Assembly: GCA_004431415.1 (NCBI GenBank)
Contig: QPMI01000036.1
Span: 372,001 to 436,000 of the forward strand
DNA from: Cyanophora paradoxa CCMP329
Lineage: Eukaryota; Plantae; Glaucophyta
Reading direction: 5' to 3'
Length of the DNA stretch: 64,000 nt
The notes under the pieces are model-generated. The model saw nothing but the letters and a program-made list of their open reading frames with translations, was not told the origin of the DNA and did not search any database. This document shows, one piece after another, positions 15,866 to 52,958 of this stretch. Made by a program: the position numbers and the translations under genes. Position 1 is the first letter of the stretch. Each line of letters opens with the position of its first letter.

Positions 15866-16275
15866 TACAAAGCCCGAGGCCCGCTTAGCTTTCTTAGCTT
15901 TCTTCTTCTTCTTCGCTTCCTTTCTGCTTGCGCGCCCGTTCTAGCTCCCCGACCCTCTGTCGCCCTTCGTTGTTCACGAGTTGCATGCATCGAGACTGAA
16001 GACGAGATGACTGGCAGTGTGGCGAGGCCGGGCGGCCGGCGACGAAGACGAATGAAAGCGCATGGTTAACAGTAGCAGGTACAACGAGGGTGGCACACTG
16101 TATACGTAGTCTTCGTACGGAAGGCGGGGAGGACGATCACGGGGCGGAGGGAGAGAGAGAAAGAACCTCGGGAGGCGTAAAAAAGGAACGGATGGATGTG
16201 CCGGGCGGGAGACTCGAAGATCGCGGACGGTTTCGACGGGGGAAGGCAGAACAGGAGGGACGCGGGGCTCGGCCC

Positions 16276-34264: not shown

Positions 34265-34629
34265 GGCCCGCGGCCGCGGCTCGCAAGGGGTAGCAGGGTA
34301 TGTACGTTGGGCTCGGGACCTTCGAGAGAGTAAATATTGTCAAGTGGGTAGATGGTAGCTGTATTCGTAGGTTTTCTGGCATCATCCTTCGAGGCCCGGA
34401 TAGAAGATGATTTAAGCAATTCCGGCGGCCGCCGGGCCGCGGCGGCCCGACTCGGGCCGAAGGTCTGTCAAGACTGAGCCTCCGGGGGCTGATCATGAAG
34501 GCCTTTACTAGGTTGCCAGGCGTCGTAGTTTAATTTTCAAGGCTTTGATTTATAGGTGTTTCTTTCGTGAGGTATAATTGAAACTGCACGTGCACAGATA
34601 TATATATGAGGGCCATCAATGGGCCAAAC

Positions 34630-34655
34630 GCGAAAAGTCAACTCCGAGAGCTCGA
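34630..34655 (+). repeat. Left terminal direct repeat, overlapping a stem-loop (34637-34669)
   Basis: GCGAAAAGTCAACTCCGAGAGCTCGA; 21/26 identical to 52933-52958, last 11 nt identical; stem TCCGAG/CTCGGA closes the 9-nt loop AGCTCGAGA. Confidence 0.6.
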
Positions 34656-34710
34656 GACTCGGAAGTGACGCTTGGATTGCGGAGGTTCTTATAACCGCCG
34701 CAACAGCTGT

Positions 34711-34887
34711 GGGGGTACCCCCTCCGAGGCTGGCGATCGCGGCGATCACGACCCTGGCGATCGCGATTTTCTCCCGATCGCGACCCTTTTCGATCGCGAT
34801 TTCGAGATCGGGGACATTAATGCGATCGCGAGAAAGGAAAAATCGGAAAAGGCCGAAAAGTGCCGTTTTCACGCGTGAAATCGATCG
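34711..34887. promoter_or_regulatory. Palindrome cluster at the left end of the element (candidate origin or protein-binding array)
   Basis: GGGGGTACCCCC (34711-34722), six CGATCG sites including three GCGATCGC, and TTTCACGCGTGAAA, all within ~180 bp. Confidence 0.5.
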
Positions 34888-34962
34888 AAAACGAGGGTTC
34901 GAATCCCGGGCCCGGATTTGGACTTGGTCAGAATCTCGAGTCAAAATGGGAGAAAAATGTGA

Positions 34963-35040
34963 CCTGGGACTTGGGACTTGGGACTTGGGACTTGGGACTT
35001 GGGACTTGGGACTTGGGAAGAGTTAGAATCAGAGTCTGGA
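34963..35040 (+). repeat. Telomere-like module 1: CCT(GGGACTT)7GGGAAGAGTT...
   Basis: Seven perfect GGGACTT units at 34966-35014 followed by GGGAAGAGTTAGAATCAGAGTCTGG. Confidence 0.95.
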
Positions 35041-35075
35041 CTCAAAAGCGGGGAAATTTTCGGACGGGGAGAAAA

Positions 35076-35546
35076 ATGTCAGGCAATCTCTATTACGATT
35101 TCCCCTTTGAGTTGAATATGGCATTCGAGAGGCTGCGCGAGTTCTGGCGTTGGCACCTCACAGGACATGACATTCCCGACATAACACCAGAGCCCAACAC
35201 ACAGGGCGTGCTTGAAGTCATCCGTCAATATCCGCGTCGATTCAATGAATGGATCGAGTTCCACGAAACGAACCGTTTCCAGAGTCTCCCCGAGGCCATA
35301 CGCGAAAATTTCGTGAGGCTGGTGGGACCAGGCTACGACAACCCTAACAATCATAGACCACGCCCAGCTGGCGTGACGCGCGAAGCTCGAGAAGACCGTA
35401 GACTTTTCCGCAGGGAATTGAGAGAGGATAGACGGAGGCTTTCAATGGGGCTCCCGCAGATTGTGAGGGGGTACAGCCCGGATTACGAGACTTACCAAGA
35501 ATTGTACGGCTTCGAAAATCCCCTTGAGAGGGTACTACCAGGGTGA
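35076..35546 (+). CDS. Element ORF, 156-aa hypothetical protein
   Basis: Uninterrupted ORF MSGNLYYDFPFELNMAFERLREFWRWHL...; preceded by the element motif TTTTCGGAC...AAAAATG. Confidence 0.7.
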   Translation: MSGNLYYDFPFELNMAFERLREFWRWHLTGHDIPDITPEPNTQGVLEVIRQYPRRFNEWIEFHETNRFQSLPEAIRENFVRLVGPGYDNPNNHRPRPAGVTREAREDRRLFRRELREDRRRLSMGLPQIVRGYSPDYETYQELYGFENPLERVLPG

Positions 35547-35884
35547 GGGGCCAGGGGGCCCCCTGAGGGTGTACCCCCCATCCGAGACTCGACCTTCGGC
35601 GGACGCACTCTGGCAATTTCCGTCAGGCCGGCTCCTTTTTCTGCCTTCGGCCCAACGCTAAATTTGGCTTTTTTCAGGCCAGTTCGCAACGTTTTCCGTT
35701 GCGAACTAGACCGCGAAAAAAATCGCCCACAAAACCGCGGTCCGCCGCCATTTTGGCTCACTCTTGAAACGGGTTCGCCGCCTTCTCTCAGCCCAAGGAA
35801 TCCCCGCCTCTCCGAATTTTCACAAGTCCGCTCTCTCAGTCACCTCACGTTTTGCCTTTGCTGATCTCTCTTCCCTTTGCGCAG

Positions 35885-36940
35885 ATGTCGATTCCCTCTG
35901 AGCTTGTCGAGGACCTTGCCAAGGCCCGTGAGATGTGGGCTAAGTCCCGCGATTGGCCTACCCGTGAAATGGAGAAGCGTGCCCGCAAGCTGGGGTACCT
36001 CTACCAAGCTCACAGCGGAGAAGGCTTCCATACCATCAACCTCAACTTTGTATCCTCCCTTCTGCCCAAGTCCAAGCAACCCAAGCCCGAGCCCAAGCCC
36101 GAGCCCGTCGACGTGCCCCCCGTCCCCGGCTGGGTCAAGACTCCCACTGGCTGGGGCGACCCCAAGCTTTTCGCCGAGTCTGCCGCCGAGACGCTCGCCT
36201 GGGCCTATCCCCCTCAAGTCTTCACGAATTTCCCCCCTCCGTCATCGTCGTCATCTGCCCCTCAGCCCGTCGCCGAGCCCGCTCCCGAGCCAGTCGATGA
36301 CGCCGAGTCCGAGGCCTCTGACGCCGAGTCTGACATCAACGACTTTATCGACTTTGACGTGCCGATTCAATACGACTCTGAGTCCTCTTCCGACTCTGAA
36401 GGCGACAACGAAAACCCGACTCGCAAGCGCCGCATTATCAAGACCAAGTCAATCGTCAAGAAGAAGTTCATGGAGACCACGTCATTCACCGACAACTCCG
36501 AGCGAGTCAAGAATCCCGCCAAGGAACACGAAAAAGACTTGAAGATCGGCGCTGGCATTGCCCGTTCTCGCGTGACGTCACACTACACCGAGCGCCTGAC
36601 TCAGCACGTCAAGACCATTGAGAAGCGCATCATCGCCAAGCGCGAAATGGCCGAACTCCGGCGCAAGTTGCGTCACGAGCGCCTTCTTCGTCGCGAGATG
36701 ACGTTGGCCAAGATTGCCGAGCGCAAGAAGAAGGAGGCAGCGGAACTTAGGGCGCGCGTCGAGGCTCAGCAGCGGCGCGAGGCAGAGGCGGCAGCGGCCT
36801 TGGCGGCGCAGCGCGAGCAGGAGCGGCAGGACTTAGTGCAGGCAGCGCAGGCCCTTCCCCGCATTCCCCTTAAGTCGGCGCCCGAGGCCCCGATTGACTT
36901 GGTTTCCGATGACGATGACTCTGACTTTGAGATGCTGTAA
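35885..36940 (+). CDS. Element ORF, 351-aa putative nuclear protein (acidic tract, NLS-like RKRR, coiled coil, C-terminal SIM-like IDLVSDDDD)
   Basis: Uninterrupted ORF from MSIPSELVEDL; ATG immediately preceded by a polypyrimidine tract and GCAG (putative 5'UTR intron 35826-35884). Confidence 0.8.
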   Translation: MSIPSELVEDLAKAREMWAKSRDWPTREMEKRARKLGYLYQAHSGEGFHTINLNFVSSLLPKSKQPKPEPKPEPVDVPPVPGWVKTPTGWGDPKLFAESAAETLAWAYPPQVFTNFPPPSSSSSAPQPVAEPAPEPVDDAESEASDAESDINDFIDFDVPIQYDSESSSDSEGDNENPTRKRRIIKTKSIVKKKFMETTSFTDNSERVKNPAKEHEKDLKIGAGIARSRVTSHYTERLTQHVKTIEKRIIAKREMAELRRKLRHERLLRREMTLAKIAERKKKEAAELRARVEAQQRREAEAAAALAAQREQERQDLVQAAQALPRIPLKSAPEAPIDLVSDDDDSDFEML

Positions 36941-37011
36941 ATAGTATTGCGTCATTCCATTGTACATACTTGTAAAAATTGGCCGACTATTCAGTTATGA
37001 CTTGGCGCGAT

Positions 37012-37125
37012 CCTGGGACTTGGGACTTGGGACTTGGGACTTGGGACTTGGGACTTGGGACTTGGGACTTGGGAAGAGTTAGACTCAGGGTCTGGGCCCA
37101 GACTTTCTCTGGATCTGAGAGTTTG
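37012..37125 (+). repeat. Telomere-like module 2: CCT(GGGACTT)8 plus ~55-bp conserved tail
   Basis: Eight perfect units at 37015-37070, then GGGAAGAGTTAGACTCAGGGTCTGGGCCCAGACTTTCTCTGGATCTGAGAGTTTG. Confidence 0.95.
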
Positions 37126-37448
37126 CTGCACCAAGTCCCTAACCACCGGGCAGACTTAGAAAGGGGTACGGAATTCTGGATACGACGTTTCTGGTGACAT
37201 TCCAGGTGAGATTTCAAGCGAGGTAGAGTCTGAACTGGTGTACGACTTGTAGCATGATACTGGACATGAAAGCTCACGAGAGTATGCAACCGAAAACGGA
37301 TGTGAAGAGGGGTAGGAGTTTTCGTGTGAGATGTCGAGAGAAGGAGGGTACGAGATGGGATACGAGTAAAAAAGACTACGAGTAAAAAAGAGTACGAGGG
37401 GTGGTAGGAGTAAAAAAGTCGGTAGAAAAACTCACCTGACTTGTCTGA

Positions 37449-37555
37449 CAAATTTCTGATCCTGGAGAAAGTCTGGGTCGGGACCTGGGTTTCAACTCTT
37501 CCCAAGTCCCAAGTCCCAAGTCCCAAGTCCCAAGTCCCAAGTCCCAAGTCCCAGG
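37449..37555 (-). repeat. Telomere-like module 3, inverted relative to module 2
   Basis: Seven AAGTCCC units at 37504-37552; the reverse complement continues GGGAAGAGTTGAAACCCAGGTCCCGACCCAGACTTTCTCCAGGATCAGAAATTTG. Confidence 0.95.
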
Positions 37556-37576
37556 TTTTTCTGAACCTAGGGCAAA

Positions 37577-37942
37577 ATGGCCCTGCTCCGGTGCACCGAC
37601 TCGCAAGACGTCGCCTACAACGTCCTGGTCAACTCGGACGTACCCCCGAGTGCCTTGGAGTTTCCCTGGAGAGTGGACAGGGACAGGGTGAGCAAGACGT
37701 TTGGAGGGCGCAAGCACTACCTCTCCCAGCTGATCCTCGGGAAGTCGCCACGTGGACGCTACGTGGAACACATCAACGGCAACCCGCTGGACTACAGGAG
37801 GGAGAACCTGCGCTGGGCATCAATGTCGGAGATTCGCAAGAAGAGGAGGGGGTACGCCAATTTACAGGAGAAGAGCGAGGAGATTCGGGAGATGATGGAG
37901 GCGGCACAGGCGCTAATGCAGCTTAGCCAGTCTAGACGCTAG
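37577..37942 (+). CDS. HNH endonuclease-like protein (HNH_3 type), probably catalytically degenerate
   Basis: YLSQLILG..RYVEHINGNPLDYRRENLRWASMSEI versus the typical MHRLI...VDHINGN.LDNR..NLR..T..QN. Confidence 0.75.
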   Translation: MALLRCTDSQDVAYNVLVNSDVPPSALEFPWRVDRDRVSKTFGGRKHYLSQLILGKSPRGRYVEHINGNPLDYRRENLRWASMSEIRKKRRGYANLQEKSEEIREMMEAAQALMQLSQSRR

Positions 37943-38744
37943 TGGTGTGAATCTTGGTGTCGTACTCGCGACCGACCGTTTCCCAGGCCACGTAAACTTC
38001 GGCTCCGGCGCCTGGCGCTGTCGAGTTGGTAGTCGCAGTCGTGTAGTCCGCCTCTGCCTCAATTAGTTCGGCCATGAGGGTAGAGCCCACGACCATTCCA
38101 GAGGTAGGCATTCCGGCGATGTTGTTGTACAATTTGAAAGTGAATTTCGTGAAGAGGAGCCGGGGCCAGACCTGGGTACGGGGATTCGAGGCGCCGTATG
38201 AATAATCGGTACCCGAGGCGCCGCCCGTGGTGGCATTCGTCATCATCTCCTTTGCGGTCATCTTCCAGAGGTTGTACATCTCAAAGGGAACGGCCTGCGT
38301 GGTCTTGTGTGTGGCATCGATGAGGGCGCCATCTAAATGCGTTTTGATGTTCGGATTCGCACCATTCCCAAATTTGCGAGTGAGGGCGGTGTTAGCGGTG
38401 AACTTGAGTTCGAGCACGCGAATGGCGGGCCGATCAGGCACAGAGGGCTCTATCTTTTTCAGGAGGCCCGAGAGCCAGAGCGCCTCCGCCTCATCCGCGC
38501 TCACGCCCGAGTCGATGTCAAAGTACACGTACACGGAGCAGGAGGCGGGATTCTCGAAATCGTTGGAGGTGACGCGCAACATGACGGGATTCTGGACCCT
38601 CACGGTGAGCGGGGTGGCGTAGTTTCCGTCCCACTCCACCTTGTCCGTCCCTGCGTTGGCCACGTTCCCAGCGTTGCCGTAGAAATCGGGGACGATCGAG
38701 CCGGCAGACACGGTCTTCACGATGGTGGCCGAGGTGGTCGGCAT
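37932..38744 (-). CDS. Element beta-rich protein A (270 aa), paralogue of the adjacent ORF; candidate capsid/structural protein
   Basis: Uninterrupted ORF; shares QNPV, SGL(L/V)KK, R.LE(L/V)KF, NPR....PR..FT.F.F and G..L.AEL.E....Y blocks with 38768-39448. Confidence 0.75.
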   Translation of the reverse strand: MPTTSATIVKTVSAGSIVPDFYGNAGNVANAGTDKVEWDGNYATPLTVRVQNPVMLRVTSNDFENPASCSVYVYFDIDSGVSADEAEALWLSGLLKKIEPSVPDRPAIRVLELKFTANTALTRKFGNGANPNIKTHLDGALIDATHKTTQAVPFEMYNLWKMTAKEMMTNATTGGASGTDYSYGASNPRTQVWPRLLFTKFTFKLYNNIAGMPTSGMVVGSTLMAELIEAEADYTTATTNSTAPGAGAEVYVAWETVGREYDTKIHTTSV

Positions 38745-38767
38745 TTTGCGACCTCAAATGAGAAAGA

Positions 38768-39448
38768 TTATCCGTGAAAGAGGGTGATGTCGCCACCGAT
38801 GTTCATGACGCGGACCCCAGGCACAGAGTCCGCGTCGGTGCCGTACGCGTAGGAAATCGAGCACTCGCGCAGCTCCGCGCAGAGGCTGGCGCCCGTGCTG
38901 AAGTGGGGCTGGTCGGTGGCGTAGGAGAGGGGGAAGACCTGGAACCTGAAAAAGGTGAAGGGGAAGCGGGGTAGAGTCGAGCCGCGTGGGTTGCCGCCCG
39001 TGTAGAGGGCCCCCAGGGTCGCGGGACTTGGATTGAATTTCGTGAAGAGCACGTCGCCCTTGAGCGTACCCCTCATCTGGTAAGTTCCCGTACCCGGAAG
39101 ATTCGAAGAACTGGGGCACCGGTTCACGGTGGGGCCGTACCCCGTCTCCCTGAACTTGACCTCGAGACAGCGCAAGACGTTGGCAGTGGCCGTGGCAGGT
39201 GCCACCTTTTTCACGAGTCCTGATTCGTGCAGCAGCTCGATTACCTCTGCGCTGAGGCTCAGAGGGTCGAAGAAGAGCTGATAGGAGTAAATCTTGGGCG
39301 TGGCATAGGCGTTCTGAACGGCCTGAATCACGACGGGATTCTGCAGGAAGACGTCCACGTAGCTGCCAGAGGAGATGCGTGCGAAATCCTTGGCGTTGGT
39401 ACCAACATCCAGATCACCTTTGAGGGTCTGGTACCAGTTGGAAGTCAT
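38768..39448 (-). CDS. Element beta-rich protein B (226 aa), paralogue of the adjacent ORF; candidate capsid/structural protein
   Basis: Same conserved blocks in the same order as 37932-38744. Confidence 0.75.
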   Translation of the reverse strand: MTSNWYQTLKGDLDVGTNAKDFARISSGSYVDVFLQNPVVIQAVQNAYATPKIYSYQLFFDPLSLSAEVIELLHESGLVKKVAPATATANVLRCLEVKFRETGYGPTVNRCPSSSNLPGTGTYQMRGTLKGDVLFTKFNPSPATLGALYTGGNPRGSTLPRFPFTFFRFQVFPLSYATDQPHFSTGASLCAELRECSISYAYGTDADSVPGVRVMNIGGDITLFHG

Positions 39449-39485
39449 TTACACCGGGGCAGATATTTTTTCGGACTTGGGGGAA

Positions 39486-41264
39486 ATGAGGAGGGTGAAG
39501 CGCATTGTGTTGATGAGGCGGAGAGGGCCACGTCCCCTTGGACCCCCACAGAACGTGTCGGTTACGCGCGTGCCTGGTCAGTTTGCGGCTTTGATTGTGT
39601 GGTCCCCTGCCGCTGAAGCGGAAGGCTATGGTGTGAGTCGCACGGTTGGAAGTATAACGGGCACCCCTATCATTTTCAGTAATGTCACTTCACCATTCAC
39701 GAACTCCAACCTACTCCCTGGTCGCCTCTACCTCTACACGGTCTTCTCCTACCGGGATCTGACCGACTCGGGGGGGGCATATGAAGATCGCGGTGCCCCC
39801 ATTGTCAGTATCATGATGCCCACGTCGCTCACATCCTCCACCTCCCAAACCTACGGCGATTTCATAACGGGCGGGGGCCCCACGTCGCAGTCCGTACCCC
39901 TCCCCACCGTGGTTGTCACCATCAACTGGGAGGCCTTCGTGGACCCCGTCGACGAGATTCGCATTTACAGGGATGGTGCATTCAACGGCATCGCAAACAA
40001 CGCGCTATCGACCTCGTACACGGACGACAGCAACTCCCTCGTGCGCGGCACGCAGTATTCCTACCAGGTGGCACCCGTCGTGGGCGGCGTCGAGTACGAA
40101 AAGTCCGACCCGATATTGGCCTGGACGGTACCGAACGCGCCCACGAACGTGATTGCGAGCGCGCCCAACGACCAGCAGCAGCCTGTGAGCCTCACCTGGA
40201 CGGCGTCCATGGGAGCGACGGGGTACAAGATCTACAGGGGCGGGGCCTACCTCGCAACCTCCGCGACCAACTCTTACAGCGATGCGACCACGATCTGGGG
40301 TACAGGGTACGAGTTCCAGATCTCCGCGACGAACTCAGGAGGCGAGGGGCCGAAGGGCATTACGGTCTACGTCACCACGGACCCGGGGGCGCCGGCTTCT
40401 ATCTCAGCGTCACAGCCTTCATCCGCATCCGCCGACGTCACCGTCACCTGGACGGGGCCCGCTACGGGCGCGGCCACCTCCTACAACGTTTACAGAGGGG
40501 GCGTGGAGGTTGGTCACAATGTTACGAGTCCCTTTACCGACAACAATACGCTCTTCATTACCGCCTACAGCTACACGGTCAAAGCCGTCAACATCGTGGG
40601 CGAGGAGGGCCCTGCCTCTTCGTCTTCGGCAGTTACGTGCTATGCTCAGAACGCCACACAGTTGAAGGCGAAGAACACTGCCCTTGGCGATGGGACGTAC
40701 ACGTTCCGTCTTGCTGATGGCACCCTCACCGACATCTACTGCAACATGACCATTGGCGAGGGAGGCTGGATGTCGTTCGCGTCTGCCCCGTCAACAGGCA
40801 GCTGGGGTACAATGAACACCAGTTCTTCCTGGGCGGGGCTCAGCCTCACCCACGGCGCGTACAACACAACGGGCGCTATTGGAAACTACTGGCGCAATTA
40901 CCAAGCCGTTGCGGGACCCGCACCCACTCACCTGCTCTTCATGTCGGGTAATAAGACCTACTATGCTGCTCTTCCGATCACCACTTTCGGATACCCGCGG
41001 GAAGATTTAAATGCCGCGGTGACTCTGACCTACACCTCCGGCAATTTCAACAACCTTGTCCCCGGAATAGATTCGACCAAGGGTGTCGTAGTGTTCCGCG
41101 CAGCGTACGCGGGGCAGCAGGATCCCACGTTCAACATCGGCACTGTACATAGCAGTACAACGCTGGCTACATGCATGTGGGAGGATGGAGGAGATCCGGG
41201 GTGGGTGAATCTGAAGAACGGACAGGGTGGTATTCTCGTGTTCGTGAGGCATCCGGCTGCTTAA
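39486..41264 (+). CDS. Fibronectin type III repeat protein with C-terminal fibrinogen-like domain (putative virion adhesin/decoration)
   Basis: About four FN3-like units (PPQNVSVT..W..Y.V; PNAPTNVIAS..LTW..GYKIYR; PGAPASISAS..VTW..SYNVYR..YSYTVKAVN..GEG), then DGTYTF....DIYCNMTIGEGGWM; start taken at the ATG after the TTTTCGGAC motif. Confidence 0.85.
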   Translation: MRRVKRIVLMRRRGPRPLGPPQNVSVTRVPGQFAALIVWSPAAEAEGYGVSRTVGSITGTPIIFSNVTSPFTNSNLLPGRLYLYTVFSYRDLTDSGGAYEDRGAPIVSIMMPTSLTSSTSQTYGDFITGGGPTSQSVPLPTVVVTINWEAFVDPVDEIRIYRDGAFNGIANNALSTSYTDDSNSLVRGTQYSYQVAPVVGGVEYEKSDPILAWTVPNAPTNVIASAPNDQQQPVSLTWTASMGATGYKIYRGGAYLATSATNSYSDATTIWGTGYEFQISATNSGGEGPKGITVYVTTDPGAPASISASQPSSASADVTVTWTGPATGAATSYNVYRGGVEVGHNVTSPFTDNNTLFITAYSYTVKAVNIVGEEGPASSSSAVTCYAQNATQLKAKNTALGDGTYTFRLADGTLTDIYCNMTIGEGGWMSFASAPSTGSWGTMNTSSSWAGLSLTHGAYNTTGAIGNYWRNYQAVAGPAPTHLLFMSGNKTYYAALPITTFGYPREDLNAAVTLTYTSGNFNNLVPGIDSTKGVVVFRAAYAGQQDPTFNIGTVHSSTTLATCMWEDGGDPGWVNLKNGQGGILVFVRHPAA

Positions 41265-42502
41265 GGTGAGAGGATTGCGACCTGTGCCTCCAGAGCCTCC
41301 ACCTTCTCCTGCAATTTCTGGACGGCCCCGTACATCATCTTTAGGATCTGATCGTAGTTCAGACCGTGGAAATCTTCGATGCCGTGTCGAGAATCGACCT
41401 CGACCGCCTTGGGCATGCAGGCCTTCACATCCTGTGCCACCCAGCCCACCATGTGCCGATCTTTGATCATTGACATGGTTTCCGACCACTCCCATCGCTT
41501 CAGCGGTAGATTCTTCACGAAATTGTAGCAAGTCTGCAGGTTGGCGGGCTCCACATTTATCTTGACACGGGCGTCGCATGAATCCGTCCAGGTGCCGCCC
41601 CCGGGTTTGTAGGCTGTGCCGTTTACTGTGAAATTGCCATTGGACATGTAAGCGACATTTGTTGTCCCACAGTACCATTTGAAATAATGGTCCGTGTTAG
41701 GCACTGAATGCCACATTGCAAGGCTCTCGGTGCCCATTGCATAGTCTACCGTACTGTTTGAAATGCTGGGATAAATGACAATCCTCGTCCCCGTCGACCG
41801 CGTCCCGAAGGAGGGGGGGGCCTGGGTGCACGTCTGCATATTGAGGAGTCCACCGGGGCTGGTGTTCAGGTAATTCGCCAAAAACGACCCACCGCCGGTG
41901 AGGTATGCAATCTCGGTATCTTTGGCGTACCACTTGAACAAATGCGAGGAATCGGGTATTCCTTGCCAGAACGCACTAGGTGAAGTGCCAATTGCATAGT
42001 CGGTGGTTGTCGGGCTAAGGGTTGGATACAGCACCAGGCGGACTCCGGAGGAGCGCGTTGAGGTAGTGGGCGTCCCTTGAGTATGTGTACCCAGGTTGAT
42101 TGTCGACCCGGCCGCAGTGTCAATGTTCCCGTTGACCCTCAACCCCCCCACAATGTCCGCCCCTCCCCCCTGCACGTAAAGCGCCGCATTCCCCTCCCCG
42201 TCGGCAGCCCCGTTGAAGGTTAGTGCGTTTGCGGTGTGACCGCTCCCATCCCATGAGCCATTCGTGACGGTGAGCCTCTGCGTCTTCACGCGCCCCGGCA
42301 CGGCCGACCCGCCCTCCCGCGTGCGCATCTTATCGCAGCGCAGCTCGCCGACGCGGATAAGGTCGGCCTCGGTGAAGGGGACGGCCGTGGCGTTGTAGGG
42401 GGTCTCGGTGGCCTGGTTTCCGAGGGTGGTCTCCTTAATCGTGTGATCGCCCTTGTGATTCACGCTTGCAGCGTAGGTGAATAGAGGGACGGCGACAGAC
42501 AT
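41261..42502 (-). CDS. Fibre/spike protein with two ~85-aa internal repeats and a C-terminal peptidase S74 intramolecular chaperone
   Basis: Repeats TRSSGVRLVLYP...DYAIG...FKWYA and TRSTGTRIVIYP...DYAMG...FKWYC; C-terminus SCDARVK.N....GWVAQDV...P.AV...LNYDQI...AVQKLQEKVEALE. Confidence 0.9.
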   Translation of the reverse strand: MSVAVPLFTYAASVNHKGDHTIKETTLGNQATETPYNATAVPFTEADLIRVGELRCDKMRTREGGSAVPGRVKTQRLTVTNGSWDGSGHTANALTFNGAADGEGNAALYVQGGGADIVGGLRVNGNIDTAAGSTINLGTHTQGTPTTSTRSSGVRLVLYPTLSPTTTDYAIGTSPSAFWQGIPDSSHLFKWYAKDTEIAYLTGGGSFLANYLNTSPGGLLNMQTCTQAPPSFGTRSTGTRIVIYPSISNSTVDYAMGTESLAMWHSVPNTDHYFKWYCGTTNVAYMSNGNFTVNGTAYKPGGGTWTDSCDARVKINVEPANLQTCYNFVKNLPLKRWEWSETMSMIKDRHMVGWVAQDVKACMPKAVEVDSRHGIEDFHGLNYDQILKMMYGAVQKLQEKVEALEAQVAILSP

Positions 42503-42526
42503 TTTTGGATTGCATCAGAAAATCGA

Positions 42527-45500: not shown

Positions 45501-47738
45501 TTCGCGGTGCATCTCCTCCGCGTCGCCGTATGCTATCCAGATGGCATCGCTGATGTACCTTTGCACGTACGCGCGCTCAAAGTTTTTCCACTTCTCATCG
45601 GCCATCTTTCTCCTCAGCTCTTCCGCGTCTTTCTGGCCCCTGCCCGTCAGCTGGTTCATCACATATGTGAAGTCGCGAATGTCAACCCCGAGAGCTCGTA
45701 TTTTCTCGCCGTTGCGCGATTCGTTTCTCTTCAGCTCTCGCATCTTTGCCCCCATGGCATCGAGGGTGTTGTTTTTGAAGGCCTCGAGGGCCCTCTTCCG
45801 TCCCGCAACCTTTGGCTCTTCGAGACGTGCGAATTCCTCGTCCGATGCAGTTTGCATTGCCTTCAGTCGTTCCTCTTCTGTCTTGGCGACCGCCTCCTCG
45901 TCCGCCCTGCGCCGCTGCTCTAACGCATCGAAGAGGGCCCTCTGGTCCTCGAGCGTGAGGCCGATGAGCTCTTCCACCTGGTCGCTCCTACCCAGTCGCG
46001 CAAAGGGTAGCCTCTCTGCCGCCGGCCTTGGATCGGGCCTCGGCGTCGTCTGCGTCTCGGCCGTCCCCATGGGCGAGCGTGCCTCTGCGGTGGCCGCGTA
46101 CTTGAGCAGCCTCTGCGCCAGCTCGTCCGCGTTGGCCTTGAATTTTTTCGACTGCTCGTCTGCTCGCTCGGCCGCCTCCTTTAAATTTTTGATCTCCTCC
46201 CGGAGCCTGTTCGCCTCCTGCACCGCCCCCGTTTGCAGCTCTCCCGCCTTTCTCCTCGTTTCCTCTTCCTCTTCCAGCAGCTGCCTCCTTGCCTCTGCCT
46301 CCTTTTCCAATTTCTTCTTCCTATCCTCGATCTCTTTCCTCTGCGCCTCGAGCAGCTCTGTGCCCGCGGTAAGCGCCTCAATTTCCTGGAGCTTTTTCGC
46401 CTTGGCGGCTTCCCTTTGCTCGTTTATCCTCTTCAGCTCCTCCTCGGCTTCGAGTATCATTTTCGTGCGCTCTTCCGCGACCTGGCGCTCTGCCGACCTT
46501 AGCGCGGTGAGGGCGCTCTCTTCCTGCCTTTGCGCGTCTGTCATCAGCTTGTTCGCTTCCGCCTTCTTCTCCGCGACCTCTGTCATTTCCTTGTCTTTCA
46601 GCTCGCTCCATTGCTGCTTTTCGTTCTCGAGTTTGTAGTACTCGCGCTGCGCGTCCTCGGTATCGAATTTAATGGGGGGTCTCGCGTTCAGCTCGTCGAT
46701 TTGCCTCACGAACCCCTTCCGATCCTTGTAGTATTTGATGCCGCCTACGATGAGGGCGCCCCCGAAGATGGCCGTTGAAGTTGCAAGGCCCGCTACCTTA
46801 TCCATGCCCTCCCCGCCTGAGCCGCCGCCACCCGAGCCGCTGCTGCCCCCGCCCCCTCCCACGGGCGTGCCGCCTGTGTCCCCTCCGCCCCCCGTGCCTG
46901 TACCCCCACCCCCGGTGCCTGTACCCCCACCCCCGGTTCCTGTACCCCCACCTCCCGTGCTTCCACCACCCGTACCCCCACCAGGAATCGCACCCGGCAC
47001 CTTGGGCCCGCCGATGATGTCGTCGTACGGGTGGCGGTGCGCCCAGTCCGTGATGTCGGCCTTCACGTGCGGGTGCTTGACGAGGGCGTACCTCTCGTCG
47101 TGGAAGTGGTCCTTCAGCGCCCAGTTCTGCGTCTTCGCCCAGTCCGAGCGATCGGGGAGCACGTCGGGCGCCGTTGGGATGCGGCCCCCGCCCGTCGTCT
47201 CCGGCGTCTCGCCCGTCCTGTCGGCGCTCAGGGCGCGGATGTTCACCTTGAAGTGGTCGAACCACGCGAAAAACTCCTCCCTGTCGCGCCTGTACTGCTC
47301 GGGCTCCATGCTCGGCAGCGCCTGGCGGCTCCAGTAGATGTGGCGCAGGGGGCCCGCGATGCGCTCTAGCGCGTTGTACCCGGGCCTCACGTCTCCCTCT
47401 GCGCCCTTGAGGGTCAGCTTCACGAGGTTGAGGGTGGCATCTTTCGCCGTGACGGCGTTCGCGATTTTCACGTCGGCCGCCCTCTTAATAATGTTCCAGT
47501 CCACGCCCGTCTCGGTCGTCACGCCCCAGAGCCCCTTGATAATTGCGGTGAGGTCCCCGTAGTCCGCCAGCGAGCCTATGGTCGTCAGGAAATCGTTGTA
47601 CGTGGATCCCTGCCGCAGCCTAATCTCGTCCGCGTAAATTCCCCTCACGCTCAGGCTCCCGTCTATCGCGAAGGCGCCGTTCAGCACCTCGTCGGGATTC
47701 GGGATGGCCATGCGCCAGGGGTCTGCAAGCATCGACAT
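42527..47738 (-). CDS. Giant (~1737 aa) chimeric fibre/coiled-coil protein, split in this sequence by two apparent 1-nt homopolymer deletions (~44640 and ~44540)
   Basis: Joins track ORFs 44031-48068 and 42527-44698 via the intermediate frame APEGKAARVAKEALSAETLF; HxH tail-fibre repeats near both ends, Gly linker, hydrophobic helices, long coiled coil, C-terminal ...TGFTVKVRF...IHWTAIG (gp53/H-lectin-like). Confidence 0.75.
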
Positions 47739-47764
47739 TTCTATTCGCGAGAGAGAAAAATTAA

Positions 47765-48240
47765 CTAGCGCTCCGCCTCCCAGGTCCACTTCAGCTTGCC
47801 GCTCACCTCGCCCGTCGTCCAGCGGCCCGCCGGCACCTGCCAGAAAACGTCGGCGAAGGGGTAATCGGGCCTGACAACGATCTGCTCGTCGCGCAGCCAG
47901 CGGTAGGCCTCGGAGGCGTCGCGTATTTTTGGCTCCCAGTATTCCCCGCCCGTGCCGTTCGGCAGCGAGTACCCCTCCCTCGCTACCCGTACCCTGTAGA
48001 AGTGCTCGCCCGTGAGCGTGTCTACCCCCCTGTACTCGAATTCTACGATTAAGGCCAGGTCCTGCCATGCGCTCTCGCCGAGACGGATGTGACTGAGGCT
48101 GTGCAGCAGCCCGTATTTAATTGGACCAGAGGCGGTTACAAGATCGACTCTGTAAGTGAGGGGCGAGGGTAGCCTGGCACGCCCGCAAAGGTGCGCGTCT
48201 TGACGCCCGAGCCCTTCCGCGGAAATATGATCAGGCGCAT
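47765..48240 (-). CDS. Element ORF, ~158-aa hypothetical protein (one apparent 1-nt deletion at 48160-48163)
   Basis: ATG at 48240 after the element motif gives MRLIIFPRKGSGVKTRTFAGVPGYPRP; one extra C joins it to LTYRVDLVTASG...KLKWTWEAER*. Confidence 0.6.
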
Positions 48241-48260
48241 TTAAGGGGGCCTGCGAAAAT

Positions 48261-48710
48261 CTATTTCGCAAAGGCCCAGAGGCCGAAGTTCTTGACGATG
48301 AAGGCGTTGTTCTTCTTGGTGGCGCCCGTGATGTCGGTGAAGCGCACGCGCAGCTCCTGGAACTTGTCGTACGCGACGTAGTTCGGGCGCACGGCCATGG
48401 GCACCTCGAACCAGTAGAGGATGGTGTTTTCCAGGCCGTCGTGGCCCCACGTCGGGATCACGACCTTGTTGATGCACGAGTTCACGTTCGAGATGGTCGT
48501 GACGTTCAAGTCGGGCACGTCCATCAGCAGAACGTTGACGGTTTTCGCGGTGGTGGGGTCCGGAATCGCGGTCGTATCCAGCTCCAGGTAGACTCCCTTG
48601 ATCTGCAGCGTGTCGATGTCGGAGGGGATCTGGTTCAGCCTGAGGCGCCAGAAGCCCTCGGAATCCTGCGTCTCTCCGTTCGACTGGACGTAGAGGTTGA
48701 CGCAGGACAT
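48261..48710 (-). CDS. Putative single-jelly-roll minor capsid (penton-like) protein, 149 aa
   Basis: Alternating beta-strand pattern VNLYVQS..FWRLRL..IDTLQIKGVYL..VLLMDVPDL..VVIP..ELRVRFTDITG, reminiscent of small penton-like proteins of PLVs/NCLDVs; recognised by pattern only. Confidence 0.5.
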   Translation of the reverse strand: MSCVNLYVQSNGETQDSEGFWRLRLNQIPSDIDTLQIKGVYLELDTTAIPDPTTAKTVNVLLMDVPDLNVTTISNVNSCINKVVIPTWGHDGLENTILYWFEVPMAVRPNYVAYDKFQELRVRFTDITGATKKNNAFIVKNFGLWAFAK

Positions 48711-48733
48711 TATTTAGGAAGGGGCCTGAGAAA

Positions 48734-48922
48734 TTATGCCTTCCTCAGGCCGTTGAGGAGGTAGGGCCCCACGAAGTAGTAGCCCGCGAACTGCGCGGCG
48801 AGGATCCGCACGAGGTAGTAGCGCGCGGGCGACATGTAGGCGACCGCGCCGAGGGTCAGCAGGCTGCCCAGGTAGCGGGAATCGCTGGTGATATCATCGA
48901 GGCTCGGGAGCATGGACGACAT
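48734..48922 (-). CDS. Small 62-aa hydrophobic (1-2 TM) protein
   Basis: YLGSLLTLGAVAYM and YYLVRILAAQFAGYYFVGPYLL; sits in the regular gene array with the upstream motif. Confidence 0.65.
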   Translation of the reverse strand: MSSMLPSLDDITSDSRYLGSLLTLGAVAYMSPARYYLVRILAAQFAGYYFVGPYLLNGLRKA

Positions 48923-48944
48923 TGTTAAGGGCCCATTCAGAAAT

Positions 48945-49316
48945 TTACTTGGGCATGAAGAAATTCCTGATGCGCTCTCCCTCCTCGTGCAGCGCCCACT
49001 GCAGCCGGTCGATGACGGCGGCCATCACGGGCGGGCTCGCGGCGGGGTTTTTCGCGTACGCCCTGGCGTCCTCTGCCATCTGGGGGTGGTACTGCTCGAC
49101 CCGCTTGGCGTAGCTCGCGATGGCGCGGCGGGTGCACCGATCCAGGTCAGCCGCCATTTCGGCCGGGGCCTTCGGCTGCTGCTGCTTCTTTCGCGCGTAA
49201 GTCCTAAGAAGCCAAGGGAACGCTGTGCTGGTGCTGGTGCTCGTACTGTTGCTGCTGCTGCCGGGGCAGGACGACGGAGCCTCTGCGCTGGGGGCTGTTG
49301 TCGCGGGAGTCTCCAT
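48945..49316 (-). CDS. Element ORF, 123-aa hypothetical protein
   Basis: Uninterrupted ORF with upstream TTTTCT...GAAATG motif; Ser/Thr-rich N-terminus, helical C-terminus. Confidence 0.6.
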   Translation of the reverse strand: METPATTAPSAEAPSSCPGSSSNSTSTSTSTAFPWLLRTYARKKQQQPKAPAEMAADLDRCTRRAIASYAKRVEQYHPQMAEDARAYAKNPAASPPVMAAVIDRLQWALHEEGERIRNFFMPK

Positions 49317-49596
49317 TTCCCATGTTCTCTAGAAAAAAACGCGTACCGGTCTGCGTCATCTGAATGTCGACGTGGTGCGGGCCGATCGCCTGCACGCTCT
49401 CGCGCCTCTGCTGCTCGGGCGGGGGCTCGGGCTCGGGCTCGCCGCGGCGCACGACCCTCAGGGCCGCCGCCTTCAGGGCGCCCAGCACGGTGTTGGGGCG
49501 CACGCGCTCCGTGCCGCCCAGGAGCTCGGAAACCAGGAAGAGCGCGCCGCAGATTACGGTGATGACGTCCGAGTGGGTGCATGCCCCCTCGAACAT
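49204..49596 (-). CDS. Small membrane protein (holin-like LF.vSE.L...N.v motif); true 3' end possibly near 49330
   Basis: VITVICGALFLVSELLGGTERVRPNTVLGAL; upstream TAATTGTTCT...AAGATG motif. Confidence 0.55.
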   Translation of the reverse strand: MFEGACTHSDVITVICGALFLVSELLGGTERVRPNTVLGALKAAALRVVRRGEPEPEPPPEQQRRESVQAIGPHHVDIQMTQTGTRFFLENMGNGDSRDNSPQRRGSVVLPRQQQQQYEHQHQHSVPLAS

Positions 49597-49617
49597 CTTG
49601 CGGGCGCATCAGAACAA

Positions 49618-51212
49618 TTACCCGCTACCCCTGCCCCTTCCGCGCCCCTTGCCCTTTCCGCGCCCTCGGCCCCTGGCCCTCAGGTCGCCGATTTCCGCGG
49701 CCTGCGGCGCAAAGCGGGGTCGTCCGCCTGGCCGGCGTCCGCCTGGAAAATCGTGAAGAGGTACCCGTCCGTGTTGTTGTCGGTGTTGTTCGTGTTTCGC
49801 GCGTGCGACCACTCTTTCAGTAAATCGCGCCTCTGCTTGTCGGGCAGCGTCTTCGAGAGGTACTCCTGCAGCTTGCTCGCGTAATTTTCCTCCGGAATCA
49901 GCGACGCAAGGACGGTGGGCGGATCTTTCCCCATGCCTATCTTCTCTTCCGTCAGCATGCGCTCGAGCTCTGCAATTTCCACCATCGTATCGATGCTCGG
50001 CTGAGGTCCTGCCTCTGCCCTCTTCTGGTCTACGAGGCGCTGCCCGGCCGCCGTGAATTTCGCGGACAGAATTTGGTGCAGCCGCTCGTACACCGTCGTG
50101 GTGCCCGGCTCCTTCTCCTTGAGCAGCACCACCCAGTCGTAATTCGCCCACAGCACCTGCAGGTTCGATATGTGATCGATCGTCACCAGCACGTGGGCGT
50201 GCAGCGCCCCGTCCGTCGGCCCCACCTCCACGCCCCCTTGCACGCGAATTCCGATGATTGCGTTGGCGTACGTGTCGTCCTTGTACTTGCCGTTCTCCTC
50301 CTTCAAATTGAAGCGGATGAACTTGTAGAATTCTGCGTCCGAGAGCACCTCTGCGAGGCTGTCGCGCAGCGCCGCCGCCTCGAATTCTCGCGCCTCTCCC
50401 AGGCGCTTGTGTGTGTTGAAGAGCACCCAGTAGCGCGACTGGCGCGCCTGTCGTATGTCGTACCGCGTGCTTCCGTCGGGATTCTTTTTGTTGAGGATGA
50501 AGACCGACCGCCCCGTCTCGCTGATTTCCGTGATCACCTTCTCGAGCGCCTCCAGCCCGTTTGCCTGCGCCGCCTGCAGTCCCGTTTTCGCCTTCTCTAT
50601 GTTCTGCTTCACCTCTTGCGCGTCCATTCGATCGCTGTAGGGCTCGGGCGGCGTACCCTCCTTGACGTGCATCCAAAATAGATGTAAGCACTTCCTCATG
50701 AGCTCGATGTACCTCTCGTCGCGCCTGACGTACCACGTTTGCACGCGCAGAGGAGTGAAGCAAAAAAGTTCGGCCCACTCGCGGCCCGTTATGTCCAGAA
50801 GTCCTTGTAACTGCGGCATGTAATAAGTAGGAACTCTATCATAAAGTTCGCCCTTGTACGGGCATTTCACCTCTAAAATTCTATCATTTCCTATAAGTCC
50901 GTCGGGACTACCGGCGAGGAACGGCATTTCTTTATGTTCGTGCAGTCCAGTATGTTTAATGTCAACGTTATCGTTCAGTGCCTTGTAGATAGAGACCGCG
51001 AGGGGCTCATAGTCATGCCCGTAGGTTAGGGCAGGGTTGTCAAAGTTGTTTTCCTCCGCTATACCGCTTAGCTCCGCCCAGAGGCGGGCCCTGGATTTCC
51101 AGGGATTTATGCCGCACGCAGCCGCAAAGTTCGAGGCAGTTAGCTTTTCGCGGCGCGCCGCGTGCCACGCCGCGCTCCCCTGTTGCAAGTTCTCGCAAGT
51201 CTCGCAGTCCAT
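49618..51212 (-). CDS. YqaJ/lambda-exonuclease-family nuclease fused to an HUH (Y1) rolling-circle endonuclease; stops at 49680 as written, or at 49618 with an RG tail if one C is restored
   Basis: QQGSAAWHAARREKLTAS, YGHDYEPLA, LAGSPDG...LEVKCPY, YYMPQLQ (YqaJ); then SRYWVLFNTHK, GVEVGPTDGALHAHVLVTIDH, LQEYLSK (RCR motifs I-III). Confidence 0.85.
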
Positions 51213-51264
51213 AGCTCCTAGCTTCGCAGTAGCGTTTAGAATTTCTTGATGTGTGCAATTGCAA

Positions 51265-51966
51265 ATGTCGGCTGCAGAGGAAGCGCCCAAGGACGTGATC
51301 GCGGAGTTCATAGATCAGGTCAAGGACCTTAGACGCTGGGTGGTTGAGCAGGCCTCGCGACCGAGTCGACCGCGCGTCCCGTGGGCGGTGCTAAGGCTGG
51401 CTAACGAAGGGTGGCTGGACGGCCATTACAACGCTGGCGGGGCCCACTACCTTCGAAGCCACGACGAGGGCAGGATTATCGATGAGTTCAAGCGCATTTG
51501 GTTCGCCCTGGGCTCCAAGCTCAGCTTTCTCTCGACCCTCCCGGACCACATTCGAATGCAAATCCTCCAGTGGTACGCGAAGGCAAGGGACTCGGAACGG
51601 GACGACGTAAATAGGCGCGACCTCTCGCGCCTGCGCTCGGCCGTGACGAAGTACGTCACGAGCTATGACTATTATAACGCCAGAGATCCCAACTACGACG
51701 TCGAGCCGATTCCAGCACATCTGGTACCCCTGGGATGGGACAGATACCCCGAGTACTCGTGGGACAGGGGCCTCAACCCCCCGCCCCCGGCCCTGCCAGC
51801 CCCGCCCGCCCCACCGATAAACGCCCCCGCCCCACGTGACGTCAGACGGGACATACGCGAATGGGAGGAGTGGAGCAACGACCCGAAGAACTGGCTACCC
51901 GGGGAGGCGGAGCTGCGCAAGCGCGCGAGGCTGATGCCCGGCGACAGGTACCCCGACCGCGAGTAG
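51265..51966 (+). CDS. Element ORF, 233-aa hypothetical protein with Pro-rich tail
   Basis: Uninterrupted ORF divergent from YqaJ-HUH; upstream ATTTCT...CAAATG motif; internal FLSTLPDHIRMQIL weakly F-box-like. Confidence 0.75.
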   Translation: MSAAEEAPKDVIAEFIDQVKDLRRWVVEQASRPSRPRVPWAVLRLANEGWLDGHYNAGGAHYLRSHDEGRIIDEFKRIWFALGSKLSFLSTLPDHIRMQILQWYAKARDSERDDVNRRDLSRLRSAVTKYVTSYDYYNARDPNYDVEPIPAHLVPLGWDRYPEYSWDRGLNPPPPALPAPPAPPINAPAPRDVRRDIREWEEWSNDPKNWLPGEAELRKRARLMPGDRYPDRE

Positions 51967-52003
51967 GGGGTACAGGTATAAATTCTCAGCGAGCCGCGAG
52001 CAA

Positions 52004-52735
52004 ATGTCGTACACCTACGGTGATCAGGAAGCGTGGTTTAAGCTACACCGCCTCTTTCCTGATAAATTCGGGGATACGCGCCTCCCCCTCAATCTAAAAA
52101 CACTCGTCAACCGACGGACCAGGGAGTTCAAAATCGAAGTGCTGCCGCCCCCTTCCAAGAAAGCCCGCTCAGCGGACAATGACGCTATGGCATGGGTGTA
52201 CGGCTCCGTCAAGCCTCAGGTCGGCAATAAGCCAGCCACCGTCGAAATAGAAAGCTACTACAACGATTACGGGCCGCAGGGGGAGTACGGGACACCAGAG
52301 CAGAGGAATTCGATGCGGGGGGTGGGCAAAATCGTGCTGCGGGCGGCTGTAGACGCACTGCAGCGCTCCGGGCTCATTAGCTCGTCGGACCCGGGCGAGC
52401 ACGCGGTGGAGCTCAAAGCCCTCCCAAGCGCAGTGGATTACTACGAAAGGGAATTGAGTCTGCGCAAGAAAGACCTCACCTTTCTCACCTACACACCGTC
52501 CCTAACACCCATAGAGGGTACGGTGCAGAACATCATCGACAACACGTACAACGTGGCCGTTCGTTGGCGCGAAGCGGCAGCGGATCTCGTAAAGGGCAAC
52601 TATAAGGACCTCGCAGACGAAGACAACCCCGTGGGGGAGTACATGGAGCTGGCAAGCGGGAGCATCGTACCCCGCCCAAGGCCCCCATGGCCCCACCCCG
52701 ACCTCGACTGGGGACCGTCGCACTTCGGCCAGTGA
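52004..52735 (+). CDS. GNAT-like acetyltransferase, 243 aa
   Basis: SMRGVGKIVLRAAVDAL (acetyl-CoA motif A-like) and VELKALPSAVDYYERELSL (motif B-like). Confidence 0.6.
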   Translation: MSYTYGDQEAWFKLHRLFPDKFGDTRLPLNLKTLVNRRTREFKIEVLPPPSKKARSADNDAMAWVYGSVKPQVGNKPATVEIESYYNDYGPQGEYGTPEQRNSMRGVGKIVLRAAVDALQRSGLISSSDPGEHAVELKALPSAVDYYERELSLRKKDLTFLTYTPSLTPIEGTVQNIIDNTYNVAVRWREAAADLVKGNYKDLADEDNPVGEYMELASGSIVPRPRPPWPHPDLDWGPSHFGQ

Positions 52736-52932
52736 GGGGGTACAGCATTCAGTTAGAGCCTGAGCGTAGGCAGAGGCCGGGAGGCCCCCCGGGGGGTACG
52801 TCGGCTGTTACTCCCCGCGTCGGTTAGTGCTAGCCCCCCTGTTAGTGCAGCGTGTACCTGATCGCAATATAACACCCAAACCTCCGTGACGCGTGACTCA
52901 TCGAACCTCCGAGGGTTAACAATGCATTGACA

Positions 52933-52958
52933 GCGAAAGGGCAAGCTCGAGAGCTCGA
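52933..52958 (+). repeat. Right terminal direct repeat, within an imperfect hairpin
   Basis: GCGAAAGGGCAAGCTCGAGAGCTCGA; arms AAAGG..AGCT and AGCT..CCTTT pair around CGAG. Confidence 0.6.

What the first reader, a model, noticed from the sequence alone, without database searches (positions are those of the whole stretch)
34630..52958. An ~18-kb endogenous virus-like element without integrase, polymerase or packaging ATPase, apparently mobilised by an HUH endonuclease
Seen: a sharply bounded island of ~15 compact uninterrupted ORFs between two intron-rich host genes, with its own upstream motif, terminal direct repeats and telomere-like arrays. About two-thirds of it encodes structural-looking proteins (paralogous beta-rich pair, penton-like protein, three fibres/adhesins, small TM proteins). 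Known: Polintons, PLVs and virophages of this size normally carry a double-jelly-roll MCP and an FtsK/A32 ATPase, usually with pPolB or a primase-helicase and an rve integrase or tyrosine recombinase; I find none of these. Eukaryotic HUH transposons (Helitrons, Replitrons) carry no virion genes; mriyaviruses/Yaravirus encode an HUH protein but also an ATPase and have larger genomes. Inference: a distinct, possibly undescribed class of HUH-integrating endogenous virus or helper-dependent satellite in an algal genome.
Basis: partly seen in the sequence, partly recalled or inferred. Interest (0 to 1): 0.95.

Follow-up and report, generated by a model that had tools for sequence, protein, structure and literature searches.

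The report
Deleted copy of algal mriyavirus-like provirus
This 18-kb island is an internally deleted copy of a virus-like element found on dozens of contigs of the alga Cyanophora paradoxa, so its missing capsid and packaging genes were likely lost in that deletion rather than marking a new class; the family is likely a branch of the mriyaviruses and may paste itself into TA runs with its DNA-nicking enzyme.

Summary
The island is real: 18.4 kb (34607-52977) between two TA runs, with fibres, a gene-start motif and an HUH nickase; no capsid, ATPase, polymerase or integrase was found. A deletion explains much of that absence. At 50625 a YqaJ nuclease gene is fused in frame to the C-terminal half of a long HUH gene. 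Sister copies have the two as separate genes, and short-read contigs leave the window at that base on both sides. On one sister contig about 25 more gene models lie there, implying about 45 kb full length. One ORF has homologs on 36 other Cyanophora paradoxa contigs. The HUH is of the mriyavirus family, and a sister copy shows the second, short HUH typical of gamadviruses. The 'capsid-like' pair is more likely ssDNA-binding protein (weak folds). I could not see capsid or ATPase genes in sister copies myself; a preprint reports Mriyaviricetes regions in a glaucophyte assembly. This scan noted the family earlier on other pieces of this genome. Verdict: defective copy of a mriyavirus-like provirus, not a new class. 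How the family integrates remains open; HUH-driven insertion is plausible but untested.

The parts
34599..34606 (.). TA run at the left junction (likely target site)
34607..52977 (.). Whole element, 18,371 bp, internally deleted provirus copy
   Evidence: GC 0.594; right end fits the depth drop within about 2-8 nt of 52974
34630..34655 (+). Left subterminal repeat inside a predicted hairpin
   Evidence: 27 nt, 85% to right copy; DNA fold z -2.3, 6 of 200 shuffles as good
34961..35018 (+). (GGGACTT)8 array 1 with conserved tail
35076..35546 (+). ORF A, 156 aa, unknown
   Evidence: gene-start motif present
35885..36940 (+). ORF B, 351 aa, acidic/coiled-coil, N-terminus variable between copies
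   Evidence: cluster of 7 members, 6 on named sister contigs
37014..37556 (.). Inverted pair of (GGGACTT)n arrays around a 355-nt non-coding spacer; candidate origin (inference)
   Evidence: 92-nt arms, 89% complementary
37577..37942 (+). ORF C, HNH endonuclease
   Evidence: PF13392 E 1.9e-7
37932..38744 (-). ORF D, 270 aa, likely T7 gp2.5-type SSB (weak); homologs on 36 other host contigs
   Evidence: model pLDDT 36, top hits 4klk Z 4.4 and 1je5 Z 3.5, phage SSBs in BFVD
38768..39448 (-). ORF E, 226 aa, paralog of D
   Evidence: E 3e-11 vs D
39486..41264 (+). ORF F, FN3 repeats plus fibrinogen-like domain (adhesin-like)
   Evidence: PF00041 E 1.4e-12, NF040941
41261..42502 (-). ORF G, fibre with S74 chaperone
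   Evidence: PF13884 E 4.6e-10; tail-fibre PHROGs
42527..47738 (-). ORF H/I, one long coiled-coil plus tail-repeat protein broken by two frame breaks at G runs (about 44520 and 44640)
47765..48240 (-). ORF J, broken near 48168
   Evidence: loose ends at 48167-48169 in 2 of 4 runs
48261..48710 (-). ORF K, 149 aa, beta-rich, penton-like by recalled motif only (unproven)
   Evidence: cluster of 11 members; Atlas hits under 0.9
48734..49596 (-). ORFs L, M, N: small proteins, L and N hydrophobic
49680..50625 (-). C-terminal half of a long HUH endonuclease; H-x-H at 50193-50201, YxxK at about 49851-49862; frame break at 49715
50625..50625 (.). Deletion junction (1-nt overlap, in frame)
   Evidence: loose ends on both sides; sister proteins P0015, P0084
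50625..51212 (-). YqaJ/lambda-exonuclease gene lacking its last 21 or so residues, fused to the HUH half
   Evidence: PF09588 E 5e-28; intact 211-214 aa sisters
51265..51966 (+). ORF P, 233 aa, variable cassette skipped in some copies
   Evidence: joints 51269 to 51946/51961 in 3 of 4 runs
52004..52735 (+). ORF Q, 243 aa, unknown
52933..52958 (+). Right subterminal repeat, weak hairpin
   Evidence: fold z -0.7, not above chance
52978..52984 (.). TA run at the right junction

Best explanation
The island is an internally deleted copy of a multicopy virus-like element of Cyanophora paradoxa, likely a mriyavirus-related provirus of about 45 kb, and the deletion likely removed the capsid, packaging and replication genes. 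Shown: the YqaJ gene is fused in frame to the back half of a long HUH gene at 50625, sister copies keep both genes whole and apart, and both ends sit at TA runs. Inferred: the full element replicates by HUH-initiated rolling circle like other mriyaviruses, using the D/E pair as ssDNA-binding proteins. It most likely integrates when an HUH nickase cuts at the subterminal repeats and joins the strand into a TA run (about 45%; an integrase in the lost part about 25%; host repair about 30%). This copy could move or be packaged only with help from full-length siblings.
For: Junction: window reads ...EPYSDRM|DAQEVKQ, intact YqaJ continues ...EPYSDRM-KSENL..., intact HUH reads ...MATFA-DAQEVKQ. Short-read contigs leave the window at 50625 on the HUH side in 3 of 4 runs and on the YqaJ side in 1 of 4 among the 24 loose ends shown. 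The HUH N-terminus, YqaJ C-terminus and short HUH of sisters have no tblastn hit in the window. Size lost: on tig00021036 YqaJ is g17350 and K is g17380 (30 steps vs 5 here), while K to D is 5-7 steps on six sister contigs vs 6-7 here and D to B is 2 in both. Copy number: D homologs on 36 named contigs. Family: the HUH half hits 32 representatives; a profile of 12 of them finds 17 IMG/VR loci, 8 with short and long HUH side by side; 3 of 4 such records carry PF04451 MCP over cut-off, 58% identical to Pleurochrysis endemic virus 1a MCP. A sister gene model holds a second, short HUH motif (E 9e-8 vs the gamadvirus profile), the HUH + HUH_long pair described for gamadviruses (PMC11253617). A preprint reports Mriyaviricetes regions embedded in a Glaucocystophyceae assembly. 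SSB-like folds top two fold searches.
Against: I never saw the deleted DNA: no host genome is held, and the MCP search listed only the best 120 of 459 hits, none from this host. The 25-gene estimate rests on one sister contig with a named YqaJ, and gene-model numbers can span a neighbouring copy. No short-read contig bridging 50625 in the window's form appears among the 32 pieces shown (2341 not shown). Of 36 gamadvirus protein families only HUH matches a window ORF convincingly, and the HUH groups apart from both gamadvirus HUH clades. The SSB call rests on a pLDDT 36 model with Z at most 4.4 and Foldseek E at least 0.003. HUH integration is untested; the right-end hairpin is not above chance.
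Confidence: 0.72

Rival explanations
1. The deleted form is a working non-autonomous satellite. The in-frame YqaJ-HUH fusion keeps both active sites, the ends, SSBs and fibres, and the unit is amplified and packaged in trans by full-length siblings.
For: Fusion in frame with YqaJ and HUH motifs intact; both ends kept; other shortened copies suggested by gene numbers on tig00000443 and tig00000319.
Against: In-frame joins arise 1 time in 3 by chance. Those other short copies have different gaps, as decay would give. No second YqaJ-HUH fusion among the HUH representatives read, though the YqaJ search excluded proteins over 338 aa. Frame breaks in H/I, J and the HUH tail.
Confidence: 0.13
2. The junction at 50625 is an assembly misjoin between two parts of near-identical repeats, and the locus holds a full-length copy.
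For: Dozens of near-identical copies invite misjoins; homopolymer frame breaks suggest a noisy long-read consensus; no bridging short-read contig among those shown.
Against: The two sides share only 1 nt, not a repeat that would seed a misjoin. Window-specific variants near the junction (51315-51744, 0-1 differences) exist in 3 DNA-type runs.
Confidence: 0.08
3. One reading: the whole family lacks MCP, ATPase and integrase and is a new class of HUH-mobilised helper-dependent elements; the lost genes are accessory.
For: None of these genes in this copy; not seen by me in sisters; little gene sharing with gamadviruses.
Against: About 25 gene models lost; HUH pair of mriyavirus type; the preprint's MCP-based Mriyaviricetes tree has a Glaucocystophyceae branch (legend only); unchecked earlier notes report capsid genes in longer copies.
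Confidence: 0.07

Closest known systems
'Gamadviridae', class Mriyaviricetes (Pleurochrysis endemic viruses, Phaglo-G; PMC11253617)
   Same: HUH family with motifs I-III; short HUH plus long HUH (short one seen only as a fragment in a sister gene model); likely T7-type SSB; PD-(D/E)xK-type nuclease; no DNA polymerase seen; estimated full size about 45 kb; Phaglo-G also has short tandem repeats.
   Different: Long HUH relatives are 610-724 aa vs about 1,600-2,100 aa in gamadvirus loci, and form their own clade (96/92). The nuclease is YqaJ-type. Phage-like fibres and FN3 adhesin. Only 1 of 36 gamadvirus families matches. Glaucophyte host. This copy lacks MCP, ATPase, VLTF2/3, RuvC and helicase.
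Mriyaviricetes-related viral regions in a Glaucocystophyceae assembly (bioRxiv 10.1101/2025.04.19.649669)
   Same: Same virus class and host class, embedded in host DNA (section 10).
   Different: The text I saw names no species, contigs, termini, copy number or deletions; figures and supplements not seen, so identity with this family is likely but not checked.
Zoravirus VC102/VC218 and other mriyavirus-related PLV groups (bioRxiv 10.64898/2026.06.19.733378)
   Same: Small elements with HUH, related to mriyaviruses (passages).
   Different: Those carry MCP, A32 ATPase and often rve or YR integrase; none found in this copy.
HUH transposons: Helitrons, IS91, IS200/IS605 (recalled, not tested)
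   Same: Y1 HUH enzyme, subterminal hairpin-like repeats, AT-rich target, non-autonomous deleted copies.
   Different: No Rep-helicase fusion here; virion-type genes present; HUH is of the mriyavirus family by sequence.

Membership tests
Mriyaviricetes | HUH endonuclease of the mriyavirus family with motifs I-III | tested here: met
   E 2e-18 vs profile of gamadvirus-locus HUHs; H-x-H and YxxK conserved
Mriyaviricetes | NCLDV-like double-jelly-roll MCP in this copy | tested here: not met
   No Pfam/PHROG hit; no tblastn hit with gamadvirus MCPs. So this copy is filed as a defective derivative, not a member in its own right
Mriyaviricetes | MCP in full-length sister copies | tested here: inconclusive
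   Best 120 of 459 MCP hits listed, none from this host; preprint legend and unchecked notes point to one
Mriyaviricetes | A32 packaging ATPase, VLTF3, VLTF2, RuvC in this copy | tested here: not met
   No Walker A in a real ORF, no tblastn or profile hit; sisters not testable
Mriyaviricetes | Genome 35-45 kb | tested here: inconclusive
   This copy is 18.4 kb; about 45 kb inferred for the full element from about 25 extra gene models on one contig
Mriyaviricetes | No DNA polymerase | tested here: inconclusive
   None in this copy; deleted part unseen
Mriyaviricetes | Placement by MCP/ATPase/VLTF3 phylogeny | not testable with these tools
   Host genome not held
'Gamadviridae' | Duplicated HUH (short plus long) | tested here: inconclusive
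   Long HUH present; short HUH seen only as a motif-I fragment in one sister gene model P0023
'Gamadviridae' | Long HUH inside the gamadvirus HUH_long clade | tested here: inconclusive
   Separate clade with P0020-22 (96/92), fork with gamadvirus clades open, long branches, no yaravirus rows
'Gamadviridae' | T7-type SSB (PEV_26) | tested here: inconclusive
   Low-confidence model of D gives T7-type SSBs as top hits; profile of D found nothing in 4 gamadvirus records
Polintons / PLVs / virophages | MCP, A32 ATPase and rve or YR integrase, long terminal inverted repeats | tested here: not met
   None found; ends show only a short imperfect match
Helitron / Replitron | Transposon-type HUH Rep (with helicase in Helitrons), no virion genes (recalled definition) | tested here: not met
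   No Helitron Pfam hit; HUH is mriyavirus-type; fibre genes present

The most novel reading that the evidence does not exclude
A mriyavirus-related lineage with no integrase uses its HUH nickase as a transposase, cutting at subterminal hairpin repeats and inserting into TA runs. It has seeded dozens of copies, and deleted units such as this one, with a working YqaJ-HUH fusion, are moved and packaged in trans: a dsDNA virus that integrates like a rolling-circle transposon.
Probability: 0.3. Interest if true: 0.75.

Novelty: new member of a known kind. Interest (0 to 1): 0.36.

Why it matters
The claimed new class is explained by a deletion, which is the main result. What remains useful: this copy shows both ends and the target site of a multicopy mriyavirus-like provirus in a culturable alga. 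Mriyaviruses are reported to lack integration genes, so how they become endogenous is open. Defined ends, TA targets and an HUH with intact motifs make HUH-mediated integration directly testable.

Tried and rejected
D/E as capsid proteins: single-sequence fold failed (pLDDT 29); Atlas lead to Bbp16 at 0.84 not upheld; no capsid among the named hits of two fold searches, which a low-confidence model cannot exclude; PDB sequence searches gave nothing useful for D or HUH. ORF B vs a gamadvirus family (11.8 bits; 0 of 200 local shuffles reach it) rejected because the match lies in low-complexity tails, not the conserved domain. Telomere-type integration via the arrays: arrays are internal. A 19-nt inverted repeat at 34422/53361 outside the ends is a GC-rich near-palindrome, not pursued. 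Close relatives with context: none from D, P0020 or the long-HUH alignment (1 known gamadvirus locus); K gave 2 matches but no loci; 80 YqaJ loci were at most 35% identical and shared only HNH or fibre hits in 2 loci. MCP search could not show host hits. No RNA holder listed on record. Paper searches with no hit: Cyanophora paradoxa + endogenous viral + HUH, Cyanophora + mriyavirus (60), glaucophyte + Mriyaviricetes (91), HUH endonuclease + integrat + endogenous + Phaglo-G (112).
Full report
Observation. The island exists. Its GC is 0.594 against 0.734 and 0.737 in the flanks, it holds 16-17 compact ORFs, and an [AT]4+TC motif lies 12-22 nt before 13 of 16 starts against 12 of 394 other ATGs (I chose the pattern after seeing the starts). 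Family scans give an HNH nuclease (C), FN3 plus fibrinogen-like adhesin (F), a fibre with S74 chaperone (G), phage tail repeats in H and a YqaJ/lambda-exonuclease domain in O. No MCP, ATPase, polymerase or integrase was found by those scans, by tblastn with 647 ORFs from gamadvirus loci, or by a Walker-A scan. Several details need correction. Frames break at G runs near 44520, 44640, 48168 and 49715, likely long-read consensus errors or decay. The three (GGGACTT)n arrays are internal. The ends fall at TA runs, 34599-34606 and 52978-52984, 2 of 5 TATATA loci in the window. On the right, summed contig depth falls from thousands to hundreds within about 2-8 nt of 52974 in 3 DNA-type runs (depth is no copy number).

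Host and copies. ORF D has 14 hits, 12 of them eukaryotic gene models labelled Cyanophora paradoxa. D homologs are named on 36 distinct contigs besides the window's own; some may be haplotype duplicates.

The deletion. ORF O is a chimera. Intact YqaJ genes of sisters are 211-214 aa and end ...EPYSDRM-KSENL.... Sister HUH genes have a long acidic, Cys-rich N-terminus and read ...MATFA-DAQEVKQ. The window reads ...EPYSDRM|DAQEVKQ, joined in frame at 50625 with one shared base. Among the 24 loose ends shown (162 not shown), contigs leave the window at exactly 50625 into HUH upstream sequence in 3 of 4 runs and into the YqaJ tail in 1 of 4. The sisters' HUH N-terminus, YqaJ tail and short HUH have no hit in the window. 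Gene numbers size the loss. On tig00021036, YqaJ is g17350, K g17380, D g17387 and B g17389. K to D (5-7 steps on six contigs) and D to B (2) match the window, but YqaJ to K is 30 steps against 5. About 25 gene models, roughly 27 kb at the window's density, are missing, giving about 45 kb. This estimate is inference from one contig; a second 211-aa YqaJ has an accession 32 entries from D on tig00020734, but its contig is not shown. No contig bridging 50625 in the window's form appears among the 32 pieces listed (2341 not shown), so a misjoin is not excluded, though 1 nt of overlap argues against it.

Family. The HUH half hits 32 of 1.84 billion representatives: six host models, three 611-724 aa long proteins and many of about 250 aa, with H-x-H invariant and YxxK nearly so. 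A profile of 12 short ones retrieved 17 IMG/VR loci, 8 with a short HUH next to a very long HUH protein. Three of 4 records searched carry an NCLDV-type MCP over the Pfam cut-off, and a Pleurochrysis endemic virus 1a MCP is 58% identical to one. Two contigs have the lengths of gamadvirus rows in Table S1 of PMC11253617. These are therefore gamadviruses, for which that paper describes a duplicated HUH, a PDDEXK nuclease, a T7-type SSB and no polymerase (passages and section 6 parts 1-2 of 3). A sister gene model (P0023) holds a second, short HUH motif I (E 9e-8). In a 32-row tree the window's HUH groups with the three 611-724 aa proteins (96/92), apart from both gamadvirus clades on an open fork, with long branches and no yaravirus rows. 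Only 1 of 36 gamadvirus families matches a window ORF convincingly. So the element works like a mriyavirus and is likely a separate branch; membership cannot be settled without the capsid module.

The beta-rich pair. D and E are paralogs. A six-sequence model of D is poor (pLDDT 36), but its longest matches are T7 gp2.5-type SSBs (4klk Z 4.4, rmsd 4.5 over 123; 1je5 Z 3.5, rmsd 5.1 over 111), and named BFVD hits are mostly phage SSBs (best E 0.003). This is weak evidence. The SSB reading came first from an earlier unchecked note (e1-10416735). K as penton is unproven. The structural share is thus nearer half than two-thirds.

What I could not see. The MCP search listed the best 120 of 459 hits, none from this host, so a capsid in sister copies is not shown here. 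A preprint states that Mriyaviricetes-related viral regions are embedded in a Glaucocystophyceae assembly and colours that branch in an MCP tree (10.1101/2025.04.19.649669; passages and section 10; figures and supplements not seen, and they may bear on this). PMC12344493 reports methylated, clustered giant-virus-like genes in C. paradoxa (passages and section 9). Earlier AI notes on other pieces of this genome describe longer copies with capsid and an origin-binding helicase next to YqaJ; these are leads, not support. Four paper searches combining the host or integration terms with mriyavirus or HUH found nothing.

Mechanism. Shown: a multicopy element, ends at TA runs, an internal deletion fusing YqaJ to HUH, intact HUH motifs. 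From the literature: mriyavirus HUH is proposed to start rolling-circle replication, and integration genes are reported absent from mriyaviruses (10.64898/2026.06.19.733378, passages). Inferred: the full element replicates in the nucleus by HUH nicking with SSB help, and the inverted array pair at 37014-37556 may be the origin (Phaglo-G also has short tandem repeats, 10.1101/2022.07.28.501842, passages). For integration I favour HUH strand transfer from the subterminal repeats into TA runs, by analogy with IS200/IS605 and Helitrons (recalled), at about 45%, against an integrase in the lost part (25%) or host repair (30%). The left repeat folds modestly better than shuffles (z -2.3, 6 of 200), the right does not (z -0.7). 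The TA-target idea was prompted by note e1-10595297 and checked here on this copy only. This copy is probably dead or dependent on siblings; other shortened copies have different gaps, as decay would give.

Verdict. Interest 0.36. The most novel reading left, integration of a dsDNA virus by its HUH nickase with deleted satellites moved in trans, has probability about 0.3 and would deserve 0.75.

Noticed in passing
window 50684-50750 (+): One contig of a run guessed to be RNA skips 67 nt with GT..AG ends (window reads GTAAGC...CGCAG): a canonical intron on the strand antisense to the YqaJ gene.
   Followed up: partly
window 51265-51966: ORF P is skipped in some copies (joints 51269 to 51946/51961 in 3 of 4 runs), and a major variant differs at 56 of about 465 letters: a variable cassette.
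   Followed up: partly
window 35850-35884 (+): ORF B lacks the gene-start motif and is preceded by a pyrimidine tract ending in CAG, like a splice acceptor; its N-terminus differs in sister copies.
   Followed up: no
window 39449-39485 and 51213-51264: Head-to-head gene pairs (E/F, O/P) share very short intergenic stretches, likely two-way promoters.
   Followed up: no
window 49441 to 53082: A low-depth joint with only 22 letters on one side in 2 of 4 runs; likely a chance GC-rich match.
   Followed up: no
sister contigs tig00000443, tig00000319: Gene numbers put YqaJ 5 models from D and HUH 2 models from D: other, differently shortened copies.
   Followed up: partly
proteins P0008, P0012, P0077, P0020-P0022: Environmental or unnamed contigs hold 59-64% identical D and YqaJ and 611-724 aa long-HUH relatives with a Cys-rich N-terminus, so the lineage extends beyond this assembly.
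   Followed up: partly
window 13250-15900 (+) and 16400-17290 (-): Host genes read by eye as a peptide-chain release factor 3-like GTPase and a calcineurin-B-like EF-hand protein, with short GC-rich introns (names recalled, not searched).
   Followed up: no
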